DNA of 64,000 bases. Source: a virus (taxonomy: Duplodnaviria; Caudoviricetes). Below the pieces are notes generated by a model, which saw only the letters and a list, made by a program, of their open reading frames with translations, made no database searches and was not told the DNA's origin. Location: IMG/VR virus record IMGVR_UViG_3300042554_000772, positions 760-64,759 of that record. One strand, given 5' to 3'. A program made the position numbers and the translations under genes. Of this stretch, positions 48,404 through 49,420 are shown one piece after another; the stretch's first letter is position 1, and the number at the start of each line of letters is the position of its first letter.

Positions 48404-48985
48404 GTATCCACTATTGCCGTGCCTATTCCATTTTGGCGAAGCCCAATCGCTCCGCATAGCTGTAGTTTTCAGCCACTTACAAAGCCTTTAGCGAAGCCCT
48501 TTCGCTCCGCATAGCTGTACACTTTGTTCGGTGTGGTGTTCGTGGATATTTGAACCGATTCAAGGCGGTTCTCAAGGTGGATATGCGGTGTTCATTGGTT
48601 GGGTTGGTTCACTTTGTTTCGCCCCTCCGTACAGCCCCCCAAGGTGGGCTAAACTTTGATAGCTAACTACACGAATCCCAAGTTCTTACGACCTGCGACC
48701 CCTTGCCTTTTGCGGTGCATACTCATTGGATATCTTGATGTATTGCTGTCTGCTGTACCCTACTCAAGCTATGGATGTGGGTTCGCCCTCAAGGTGTTCG
48801 CCTACTATCGTTGAAGTCGGCTAATAACCCTAATGCATTGACCCTTTTGTGGATGCCCTTGGCCTTGGCCTTGGTTCACTCCCCATAGCTCCCATCGGAG
48901 CAGTCAGTTACCACCTCATCATCCCCAACCCCTCTGCACTGACTTGTCAAGATTTCAAAGAACGCAAACCCGATGTGCTGATTTG
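48404..48985 (-). ncRNA. candidate long structured leader/ncRNA
   Basis: No credible ORF; several hairpins and a duplicated ~30-nt unit; follows a promoter-like AATATTTG and boxA. Confidence 0.4.
48952..48963 (-). promoter_or_regulatory. boxA-like antitermination element GTTCTTTGAAAT
   Basis: Resembles rRNA-leader boxA; ~30 nt downstream of AATATTTG (48992-48999). Confidence 0.55.
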
Positions 48986-49420
48986 ATGATGCAAATATTG
49001 GGGGGCGGTGAACAAGTTTGTACACCTTGCAAGAAAAAAAATGTGGGGAACAGCCCAAGAAAAAGCCTAACAGCTTGAACTACAGCGACTTAGACCACTA
49101 AAAAAAAATGTGGGGAAAATGAAGAAAAATTCGGGGGAAGAAAGTAGTAATATGTAATCTACTGATAATCAAGCAGATAAACATTACCAAACGATTCAAA
49201 CACCCCCTTTTGACCCCTACACCATATATATAGCAAACGCATTAAACACGATGCTAATACATAAATGGCTGATACTCAGTGCAGTTTGCTCAGGAGCTAA
49301 TATCTCGGCCCAAGCGGTATGGTAGCCCCACAAACGGGGGCGGATTGAATACGGGGCAGATATGGGGTCAATACGGCCAAGCGGGGGGATACGGGCCAAG
49401 GTGCAGGGGACGGGGACGAT

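What the first reader, a model, noticed from the sequence alone, without database searches (positions are those of the whole stretch)
48404..48999. rRNA-style promoter, boxA and ~580-nt structured noncoding RNA heading the early operon
Seen on the minus strand: AATATTTG, then GTTCTTTGAAAT, then an ORF-free tract. It has stems AGTCAGT/ACTGACT, GCTCC-GATG-GGAGC, AGCCC/GGGCT and GAACCG/CGGTTC, GNRA-like loops, and a duplicated TACAGCTATGCGGAGCGA(AA/TT)GGGCTTCGC unit (~48436, ~48491), ending at the tRNA mimic. Inference: an undescribed large phage ncRNA or an antitermination leader using host Nus factors.
Basis: partly seen in the sequence, partly recalled or inferred. Interest (0 to 1): 0.7.

Follow-up and report, generated by a model that had tools for sequence, protein, structure and literature searches.

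The report
Large noncoding RNA heading phage operon
The first 500-600 bases behind the early promoter of an uncultured lake phage code for no protein but for a conserved, folded RNA that ends at a tRNA look-alike and turns up in lake RNA samples; what the RNA does is unknown.

Summary

It is a real noncoding RNA gene or leader. Related uncultured phages (adjacent protein about 47-49% identical) keep the same layout: operator repeats, a Bacteroidota -7 promoter box, a 620-690-nt ORF-free tract, two 'TATGCGG-hairpin-CGCCAAA' units, a tRNA-like minihelix, then early genes. Their tract has a fold with strong compensatory changes, which also hold in sequences kept out of the prediction.

A covariance model built only from those relatives finds the window's 3' domain (48413-48549, E 6e-4). 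Models of their 5' and central domains do not match, so only the 3' third is demonstrably homologous.

Contigs from four lake metatranscriptome runs lie on the tract. No Rfam family matches.

The 'rRNA-style promoter' is better read as a Bacteroidota sigma-A -7 box. The boxA lies in the least conserved segment, so Nus antitermination is not supported.

Best reading: an early RNA cut from the operon transcript at the tRNA-like element. Relatives carry hammerhead and pistol ribozymes between their early genes.

This scan has noted similar ribozyme- or tRNA-mimic-punctuated phage operons, and noncoding leaders, on other genomes.

The parts
49155..49171 (-). Operator-like near-palindrome TGATTATCAG..., perfect copy. 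Degenerate copies lie at 49262-49278 and 49602-49626. The same motif is repeated 4-5 times upstream of the promoter in relatives.
   Evidence: 8 matches against 2.2 expected, 0 of 100 shuffles reach 8; 4 of the 8 lie in 49155-49626. Relatives: alignment.
49034..49117 (-). Two exact copies of TTCCCCACATTTTTTTT (49034-49050 and 49101-49117) upstream of the promoter; role unknown.
   Evidence: 2 matches; 10 of 100 shuffles reach 2, so not significant on number alone. Both copies are conserved in L003, the downstream one with a single change.
48992..48999 (-). Candidate -7 promoter box AATATTTG (Bacteroidota sigma-A type, 7 of 8 to TAnnTTTG).
   Evidence: Same position in relatives: CATATTTG in L003, perfect TAnnTTTG in 11 of 13 B/C sequences. 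Consensus taken from the paper passage.
   Evidence: poorly conserved.
48888..48944 (-). 5' leader stems: AGTCAGT/ACTGACT around a G-rich loop, and the GCTCC-GATG-GGAGC hairpin. One change against L003, so untestable by covariation.
   Evidence: 48879-48945 is 98.5% identical.
48404..48887 (-). Body of the noncoding RNA: purine-rich (58% A+G over 48404-48990), ORF-free, 93-98% identical to L003, with 1- and 2-nt indels.
   Evidence: RNA-run contigs lie on 48386-48878.
48413..48549 (-). Conserved 3' junction domain: closing stem 48548-48542 with 48411-48405, and two hairpin arms H1 (48510-48491) and H2 (48455-48436) that form the duplicated unit.
   Evidence: Model R1, built from relatives only, hits here full length: 23.5 bits, E 5.7e-4 over the whole window. 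L004's equivalent scores 14.8 bits, E 0.007, with filters off only. Fold z = -3.37.
48361..48403 (-). tRNA-like minihelix: 7-bp acceptor stem, 11-nt GG linker, 5-bp T stem, TTCGTTT loop, discriminator A. It starts one base after the 3' domain's closing stem.
   Evidence: the only hit of the scanner in the 64-kb window; matches the tmRNA model's tRNA-like end only, 16.9 bits against 47.
48319..48355 (-). Two copies of the early-gene leader motif AACCCTTTAAA, then the ATG (48319) of the first early ORF (91 aa).
   Evidence: 5 exact minus-strand copies, each just upstream of an early-gene start..

Best explanation
The tract is a noncoding RNA of about 480-590 nt and the first product of the early operon. 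Host RNA polymerase starts a few bases downstream of a Bacteroidota-type -7 box (48999-48992), under the control of a cluster of operator-like palindromes further upstream (inferred). The transcript folds. Its best conserved part is a 3' three-way-junction domain whose two arms are the duplicated hairpin units (shown by homology). One base further on, a tRNA-like minihelix acts as a cutting signal for the host's tRNA-end enzymes, RNase P on its 5' side. This separates the RNA from the mRNA of the first early gene (inferred). Hammerhead and pistol ribozymes separate the following early genes in relatives in the same way (seen in relatives). The released RNA then persists as a molecule of its own and acts in trans during host takeover, as a structured scaffold or decoy, rather than serving only as a 5' UTR (inferred, weakest step). 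Nus/boxA antitermination is not needed for this reading.
For: (1) Noncoding. Open frames differ in frame, place and length among 15 related sequences. Window against L003: 6 gap columns in runs of 1-2 nt within the RNA, but no gap in the 1452-nt and 276-nt flanking genes. (2) Conserved architecture in lineages whose adjacent protein is about 47-49% identical: operators, -7 box, 620-690-nt tract, two hairpin units, minihelix. A three-motif pattern taken from the tract hit 15 viral and 7 metagenome stretches; all extracted copies align at 75% identity or more with known family members; it hit 0 of the bacterial and archaeal genome collection. (3) Structure in relatives. On 13 sequences and 146 pairs, 93.2% of cells pair. 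49 pairs have changes on both sides, against 24.2 +/- 2.8 in shuffles (0 of 500) and 7-17 when partners are slid. A structure predicted from 6 sequences only is kept in the 7 held-out ones: 82.3% paired against 29-41% slid, and 32 pairs with double changes against 5-7. (4) The window belongs to the family at its 3' domain: R1 hit at 48413-48549, E 5.7e-4, the best of two matches listed up to E 10 in 64 kb. (5) Minihelix. There is one in the window. 27 were found in the relatives' loci against 1-5 in shuffles. 19 of 70 distinct upstream regions carry one on the gene strand, against 0-4 in shuffles and 2 on the opposite strand. Acceptor and T stems differ completely between lineages yet stay paired. 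The relatives' element resembles the mascRNA-menRNA model (30.9 bits, below the 42.5 cut-off). (6) Processing context. There are hammerhead-like elements with covarying stems II and III and a fixed stem I on the gene strand only: 25 copies on the gene strand in 15 of the 79 loci, which include duplicate loci, and 0 on the opposite strand. L009 has two pistol ribozymes above the Rfam cut-off. (7) RNA. 24 lake-water metatranscriptome runs hold 13-21% of the words of 46000-51000. In all 4 runs laid, contigs lie on 48386-48878, some with 1 other letter in 134 nt. Those contigs carry mean word depths of 8-165, against 3.7-16 for the contigs on the neighbouring early genes. The tool warns that contig depth cannot rank genes, so this is a hint only.
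Against: Models of the relatives' 5' domain (R2) and central domain (R3) find nothing significant in the window. A profile HMM of the relatives does not hit it either. About two thirds of the window's RNA is therefore without demonstrated homology or covariation. R1 misses L004 with default filters. The window's own lineage has only two sequences. The whole RNA does not fold better than shuffles. RNAalifold energy is about the same for the opposite strand (-264 against -274) and contigs do not show strand, so the strand rests on the orientation of promoter, minihelix and genes. No cut, no RNA end and no trans function is shown. A stable excised RNA and a mere leader are not told apart by my data.
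Confidence: 0.5

Rival explanations
1. It is a cis-acting 5' leader only. The long structured untranslated region stabilises or tunes the early mRNA (folding, protection from 5' decay, control of translation of the first ORF) and has no life of its own after processing.
For: It lies between the promoter and the first early ORF on the same strand. The 5' two thirds differ between lineages while position and length class are kept, as expected for a spacer-like leader. This scan noted position-conserved but sequence-unrelated leaders in other phages (e1-6013664, not checked by me).
Against: Strong covariation over more than 140 pairs in the relatives is more than a spacer needs. A dedicated tRNA-like cutting signal sits between the RNA and the ORF. 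RNA-run contigs on the tract carry higher depth than those on the genes in 4 of 4 runs (hint only).
Confidence: 0.27
2. One reading: an antitermination leader in which a boxA near the 5' end loads host Nus factors onto RNA polymerase, so that it reads through the long untranslated tract and the early operon.
For: A boxA-like 12-mer lies about 25-35 nt downstream of the -7 box. A TTGAAAT core recurs at the aligned place in 8 of 13 relatives. A long untranslated transcript would in principle be exposed to Rho (general knowledge).
Against: The motif lies in the least conserved segment, differs at 2 of 12 positions in the 92%-identical relative and is absent from L009. No terminator-like site was found on the minus strand between the promoter and the first genes. 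The RNA has G above C (28% against 22%), which by general knowledge disfavours Rho loading. I could not compare it with host rRNA leaders because no host genome handle was available.
Confidence: 0.08
3. It is a DNA-level element (replication origin, packaging or regulatory region) whose transcription is incidental.
For: It lies in the divergent region between the early (minus) and late (plus) gene blocks. It has operator-like palindromes, T-runs and repeats upstream. Antisense folding energy is similar.
Against: The repeats and operators lie upstream of the promoter, not in the tract. Compensatory changes preserve pairing over hundreds of bases. The tRNA-like element is strand-specific. RNA-run contigs cover the tract while parts of the late region have none.
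Confidence: 0.05
4. It hides one or more small protein-coding genes.
For: Frames of 32-66 codons exist in the window. L003 has a 240-codon frame on the opposite strand.
Against: The frames are not conserved in place, frame or length among relatives. Indels of 1 and 2 nt occur between the two closest sequences. Long antisense frames are expected opposite a purine-rich strand. No Pfam or PHROG hit for the neighbouring small ORF candidates.
Confidence: 0.03

Closest known systems
GOLLD and ROOL, large 'ornate' RNAs of phages and prophages
   Same: Phage-encoded, several hundred nt, noncoding, multi-helix folds supported by covariation, next to tRNA sequences. [quoted passage not shown] Here too the 3' domain is the conserved part and a tRNA-like element is covalently attached.
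   Different: No match to any Rfam model, even at E up to 10. The attached element is an armless minihelix, not a tRNA (one search finds no tRNA gene). It sits at the head of an early operon of Flavobacteria-type podophages. Multimer or cage formation is untested.
MALAT1 / MEN-beta with mascRNA: a long noncoding RNA whose 3' end is made by RNase P at a tRNA-like structure
   Same: A tRNA-like element directly 3' of a long noncoding RNA. The relatives' element is the best Rfam look-alike of the mascRNA-menRNA model (30.9 bits, E 0.011-0.017).
   Different: Below the family cut-off (42.5 bits), with no match for the window's own element. Eukaryotic nuclear against phage. Here an mRNA follows the element. 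Cleavage is not shown. The MALAT1 mechanism is from abstracts listed and from general knowledge.
Hammerhead ribozymes flanking single genes in phage and prophage operons (Perreault et al. 2011, PMC3088659; passages read)
   Same: Long phage transcripts cut into gene-length pieces by RNA elements. Relatives of this phage carry such hammerheads and pistol ribozymes in the same early operon, each followed by the same short leader.
   Different: The window has no ribozyme that Rfam or my pattern finds. Its one recognisable cutting signal is the tRNA-like minihelix, and the piece it would release is a 0.5-kb noncoding RNA, not an mRNA.
rRNA-operon and lambda nut antitermination leaders (boxA with Nus factors)
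   Same: A T-rich 12-mer near the 5' end of a long untranslated transcript.
   Different: The motif is poorly conserved. No boxB- or boxC-like partner or downstream terminator was identified. The promoter is of Bacteroidota type, not rRNA P1-like by any test I could run.

Membership tests
Any Rfam 15 family (including GOLLD, ROOL, 6S, tmRNA, ribozymes) | Match to the family covariance model at its gathering score | tested here: not met
   0 matches in the whole window. (E up to 10 on 48000-49400): only the tmRNA tRNA-like end at 16.9 bits against 47, and two chance-level hits.
Large ornate phage RNA (the GOLLD/ROOL kind, not the families) | Noncoding, over 400 nt, multi-helix fold supported by covariation | tested here: inconclusive
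   Met in relatives. For the window only the 3' 137 nt are tied to that fold. Its 5' and central parts match neither model and have only one close relative.
Large ornate phage RNA (the GOLLD/ROOL kind) | Encoded next to tRNA genes or tRNA islands | tested here: inconclusive
   No tRNA gene in the window. A tRNA-like minihelix abuts the RNA.
Large ornate phage RNA (the GOLLD/ROOL kind) | RNA-only multimeric assembly | not testable with these tools
   Needs in vitro transcription with SEC-MALS or cryo-EM.
mascRNA-type tRNA-like 3'-end signal | Match to the mascRNA-menRNA model at its cut-off | tested here: not met
   Relatives score 30.9 and 20.3 bits against 42.5. No hit for the window's element.
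mascRNA-type tRNA-like 3'-end signal | Acceptor stem plus T arm placed directly 3' of a long noncoding RNA and conserved by covariation | tested here: met
   stems differ fully between lineages but stay paired; 19 of 70 upstream regions against 0-4 in shuffles..
mascRNA-type tRNA-like 3'-end signal | Cleavage by RNase P (and RNase Z) | not testable with these tools
   RNA-run contigs cannot show ends.
boxA/Nus antitermination leader | boxA conserved among relatives | tested here: not met
   2 of 12 positions differ in L003. It lies in the least conserved segment. The TTGAAAT core is kept in 8 of 13 relatives and absent from L009.
boxA/Nus antitermination leader | Likeness to the host's own rRNA-leader boxA, and NusB/NusE binding | not tested
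   No host genome handle could be obtained. Binding needs an experiment.
Bacteroidota sigma-A promoter | -7 box TAnnTTTG (paper passage) | tested here: met
   Window 7 of 8. 11 of 13 relatives are perfect at the aligned place and the other two have one mismatch.
Bacteroidota sigma-A promoter | Upstream TTTG element about 19-21 nt before the -7 box (recalled from the literature, not seen in a call) | tested here: not met
   Absent at that spacing in the window. Present 19 nt upstream in most B relatives.
E. coli-type sigma-70 / rRNA-style promoter | -35 and -10 hexamers with 16-18 nt spacing | tested here: not met
   0 sites in 47900-50000 (2.2 expected by chance).
Protein-coding gene | Open frame conserved among relatives; indels in multiples of three | tested here: not met

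The most novel reading that the evidence does not exclude
This is a new class of large, highly structured phage RNA, comparable to GOLLD or ROOL but specific to Flavobacteria-type lake podophages. It is made first in infection, released by tRNA-type processing, carries a conserved three-way-junction 3' domain with two identical protein- or RNA-docking hairpins, and has a swappable 5' domain. It would act in trans on the host, for example by sequestering a tRNA-processing or translation factor, or by assembling into an RNA-only particle.
Probability: 0.3. Interest if true: 0.8.

Novelty: new variant of a known kind. Interest (0 to 1): 0.62.

Why it matters
Large structured RNAs of phages are few, and none has a known function. 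This family is absent from Rfam and, by blastn and a model search, from 50,697 GenBank phage records. It has a covariation-supported fold of more than 140 pairs in relatives. It occupies the very first position of the early transcript and is seen in many lake metatranscriptomes. Together with the hammerhead and pistol ribozymes of its relatives, it suggests that a whole group of uncultured Bacteroidota phages build their early programme on RNA processing. A tRNA look-alike would then do for a noncoding RNA what it does for MALAT1 in animals. The proposed cut by RNase P at 48404/48403 and the existence of a discrete 0.5-kb RNA are directly testable.

Tried and rejected
Similarity searches that found nothing. 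blastn of the tract, of 20 kb around it and of a relative's RNA against GenBank phages gave no match. tblastn of the adjacent 483-aa protein against the same phages gave no match. Model R1 hit 0 of 3 GenBank relatives with 40-50% identical terminase, and none of the 57 more distant loci among the 59 searched; it hit L009 and missed L004. nhmmer and blastn of the window's tract against the relatives' loci hit only L003/L004.

Where the window fails to match its relatives. Profile HMMs of the relatives did not hit the window. Models R2 and R3 had no significant hit in the window.

Antisense idea. I tested whether the RNA pairs with the early-gene leader motif and rejected it: duplex energy -11.9 against -9.5 +/- 1.3 in shuffles (fraction 0.046), and 0.06-0.84 in relatives.

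Strand from structure. This could not be decided; sense and antisense consensus energies are alike.

Single-sequence MFE of L008 as an independent structure. It shares only 39 of 146 pairs with the consensus, so I replaced it with the held-out test.

Two-sequence consensus fold of window plus L003. Too little variation to test anything. By eye, one A-U to G-C exchange occurs in the helix that encloses H1, and several changes fall in loops or give G-U.

Ends of the RNA. In runs X1, X3 and X15, contigs stop at 48878 with no loose end listed. In X1 and X3 nothing is laid on 48879-48983. Contigs reach 48386 and 48398 on the other side. In X15 a contig of the L003-like variant continues to at least 48963. 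No DNA run was laid and contigs cannot show ends, so I draw no 5' or 3' end from this.

Share of words in 24 runs. Only four runs were laid; I make no claim about habitat beyond those four.

Host rRNA boxA comparison. Not possible, because the control genomes come without handles.

Relatives whose protein is 67-84% identical (P0002, P0004-P0006) could not be fetched, so the window's lineage stays at two sequences.

Supplementary files of papers were not opened.
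Full report
SETTING. The window is nearly all of a 64.8-kb virus record. Its large terminase is 40-50% identical to those of Flavobacterium, Cellulophaga, Maribacter and spring-water podophages. One replication protein carries a BT4734-like domain. A Bacteroidota host is therefore likely (inferred). Genes from 48319 downwards run on the minus strand, and an endolysin and structural genes start at 49907 on the plus strand. The finding lies in the divergent region, on the side of the minus-strand (early) block.

OBSERVATION. The duplicated unit is a 33-nt direct repeat, 91% identical, spaced by 55 nt. The tract is ORF-poor. The 137-codon frame that runs into it is not kept in the nearest relative, whose gene starts at the ATG equivalent to 48319. 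Taken alone, the sequence does not fold convincingly better than shuffles: z = -1.83 and z = -1.02. The exception is the last 192 nt, z = -3.37. Rfam has nothing at gathering level in the window. At E up to 10 it reports only the tRNA-like end of the tmRNA model on 48358-48403. ARAGORN finds no tRNA or tmRNA gene.

RELATIVES. No GenBank phage holds similar DNA. The adjacent 483-aa protein has 65 relatives in metagenomes. An alignment of 22 of them recovered 79 viral loci.

The nearest relative, L003/L004, is 88-92% identical over the region. Against it, the two flanking genes are 96% identical with no gap. The RNA tract is 93-98% identical with gaps of 1 and 2 nt. The first ~46 nt after the promoter are the least conserved (aligned part 85.7% identical), and the 225 nt that follow are the most conserved, at 98%.

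A second lineage, B (L006-L020 plus metagenome copies), and a third, C (L009/L018), have adjacent proteins 47-49% identical. They show the same order of parts:
- repeats of a TGATTATCAG-type near-palindrome;
- a perfect TAnnTTTG box, preceded in most B sequences by TTTG 19 nt upstream;
- an ORF-free, purine-rich tract of 620-690 nt;
- two 'TATGCGG-hairpin-CGCCAAA' units;
- a tRNA-like minihelix;
- small early genes.

Short motifs shared with the window stand in the same order: TTGAAAT, CGTAAGAA, CCAATGAAC, TATGCGG twice, and AACTA(A)CAGC. A pattern made of three of these motifs hit 15 stretches of the viral collection, 7 of the metagenome collection and none of the bacterial/archaeal genome collection. 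The 38 extracted copies collapse to 19 distinct sequences. All belong to lineages A or B.

NOT CODING. The longest stop-to-stop frames in 15 sequences differ in strand, frame, position and length. The alignments contain many 1-nt indels.

STRUCTURE IN THE RELATIVES. RNAalifold on 13 B/C sequences gives 146 pairs. On these, 93.2% of cells pair. 49 pairs carry changes on both sides, against 24.2 +/- 2.8 in column shuffles (0 of 500), and against 7-17 when the partners are slid by 1-3 columns. The covariation score is 0.221 against 0.111.

That structure was derived from the same alignment, so I repeated the test with held-out data. A structure predicted from 6 sequences was scored on the other 7. 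There, 82.3% of cells pair (slid controls 29-41%). 32 pairs (96 cells) show double changes relative to the first group, against 5-7 pairs (9-24 cells) for slid controls. The relatives' tract is therefore a structured RNA with:
- a long 5' hairpin domain;
- a central domain;
- a 3' three-way junction whose arms are the two hairpin units;
- the minihelix.

IS THE WINDOW'S TRACT THE SAME RNA? Partly. Model R1, built from the B/C 3' junction only, hits the window once, full length, at 48413-48549 on the minus strand: 23.5 bits, E 5.7e-4 for the whole window. In L004 the equivalent place is the top hit only with filters off (14.8 bits, E 0.007). It is missed with default filters.

Models of the 5' domain (R2) and the central domain (R3) find nothing significant, and neither do profile HMMs. 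Homology is thus shown for the 3' third. For the rest there is only conserved position, length class, composition, a few motifs and high conservation against L003. A conserved 3' region with a variable 5' region is also what is described for GOLLD (passage).

THE 3' END. The minihelix at 48403-48361 starts one base after the closing stem of the 3' domain. My scanner finds it as the only instance in the window. It finds 27 instances in the relatives' loci, against 1-5 in shuffles. With one acceptor mismatch allowed, 19 of 70 distinct upstream regions have one on the gene strand, against 0-4 in shuffles and 2 on the opposite strand. Acceptor and T stems are entirely different in lineages A, B and C, yet they pair. 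Rfam's nearest model for the B element is mascRNA-menRNA (30.9 bits, below the 42.5 cut-off).

PROCESSING CONTEXT. L009 has two pistol ribozymes above the Rfam cut-off on either side of the homologous gene. In lineage B and in L047/L049 and L068/L069, I found elements by eye and by regex that have the hammerhead core, a fixed 6-bp stem I, and stems II and III that covary. They lie upstream of early genes and only on the gene strand. cmscan did not list them at E up to 10, so their identification rests on my reading of the core (recalled consensus).

Such arrangements are described for prophages as a way of cutting long transcripts into gene-length mRNAs (Perreault et al. 2011, PMC3088659; passages). 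The window has none. It does keep a common leader motif, AACCCTTTAAA, exactly five times on the minus strand, each time just before an early start codon, including twice after the minihelix.

RNA EVIDENCE. 24 runs labelled lake-water metatranscriptome hold 13-21% of the sampled words of 46000-51000. I laid four. In all four, contigs lie on the tract:
- X1: 48636-48878
- X3: 48398-48580, 48551-48741, 48745-48878
- X15: 48386-48741, 48745-48878
- X21: 48548-48692, 48678-48820

Some are nearly identical (1 other letter in 134). Long contigs also cover the early genes (46181-48178 in X1, 46355-48030 in X3). Parts of the late region have no cover in any run.

The contigs on the tract have mean word depths of 94 (X1), 27-83 (X3), 8-10 (X15) and 82-165 (X21). 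The contigs on the neighbouring genes have 14.6, 16, 3.7-4.6 and 14.5. The tool states that contig depth cannot rank genes and that DNA may be present in RNA libraries. I therefore take this only as a hint that the tract is transcribed and abundant. Strand and ends are not shown.

PROMOTER AND boxA. An E. coli-type scan finds no promoter. The conserved element is the -7 box known from Flavobacterium and Bacteroides (passage in PMC7641319). The boxA-like 12-mer is not well conserved, and no terminator-like site follows it on the minus strand. I could not compare it with a host rRNA leader.

LITERATURE. Four full-text searches found no description of this RNA (for large phage RNAs, tRNA-like elements and ribozymes; for boxA in Bacteroidetes). 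I saw listings and abstracts only, except for the passages named above.

EARLIER NOTES OF THIS SCAN. Other genomes were noted to have ribozyme- or tRNA-mimic-punctuated early operons and noncoding leaders (e1-6013664, e1-6135603, e1-6187892, e1-6208582, e1-6198395, e1-6282261). I did not check those genomes. They gave me the Perreault reference, which I read.

VERDICT. This is a real, conserved, structured noncoding RNA at the head of the early operon, with a tRNA-like 3' boundary. It is new as a family, and its kind (large structured phage RNA, processed leader) is known. Its function is open.

Noticed in passing
L006:3357-3408, 5026-5075, 5936-5982, 6260-6310; L008:3548-3598, 5425-5475; also L011-L015, L020, L047, L068: Hammerhead-like elements upstream of early genes in relatives. 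They have a fixed 6-bp stem I (GGTTAA/TTAACC) and covarying stems II and III, and lie on the gene strand only. Rfam cmscan did not list them at E up to 10. None is in the window.
   Followed up: partly
L009:3437-3500 and L009:4965-5039: Two pistol ribozymes (68.1 and 51.6 bits, cut-off 34.5) flank the homologue of the 483-aa gene in lineage C.
   Followed up: no
window 43437-43447, 46446-46456, 47992-48002, 48330-48340, 48345-48355 (minus strand): Exact motif AACCCTTTAAA, each copy about 10-25 nt before an early-gene start codon (10 matches with up to 1 mismatch against 2.1 expected). It resembles the leader that follows the hammerhead cut site in relatives. It may be a shared translation or processing leader.
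   Followed up: partly
window 49155-49171, 49262-49278, 49602-49626; also 60023-60047: Near-palindromic TGAT(T/A)ATCA-type sites cluster upstream of the early promoter and are repeated 4-5 times at the same place in relatives. They are candidate operators of a phage or host regulator.
   Followed up: partly
window 49421-49475: Four to five tandem copies of an 11-nt unit in a GC-rich (0.64) stretch inside a 106-codon GTG frame (49217-49537, minus strand) that has no Pfam or PHROG match. Against L003 the frame has four 1-nt gaps, so it may not be a gene.
   Followed up: no
window 46530-47981 (minus strand): The 483-aa protein that travels with the RNA has no Pfam or PHROG hit. Its alignment has an invariant CGGHIT.S block, and its nearest Atlas clusters include some Amidoligase_2 members (12% of one cluster). 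This is a lead only.
   Followed up: partly
L003:3921-4643 (opposite strand to the RNA): A 240-codon open frame lies antisense to the RNA in the close relative but not in the window. It is best explained by the scarcity of stop codons opposite a purine-rich strand.
   Followed up: partly
L080:2470-3111 and L061:1900-2335: More distant relatives (adjacent protein 27-32% identical) also show a TAnnTTTG-type box, then a 350-560-nt ORF-poor tract, a tRNA-like minihelix and a start codon. The tract sequences are unrelated to the window's.
   Followed up: no
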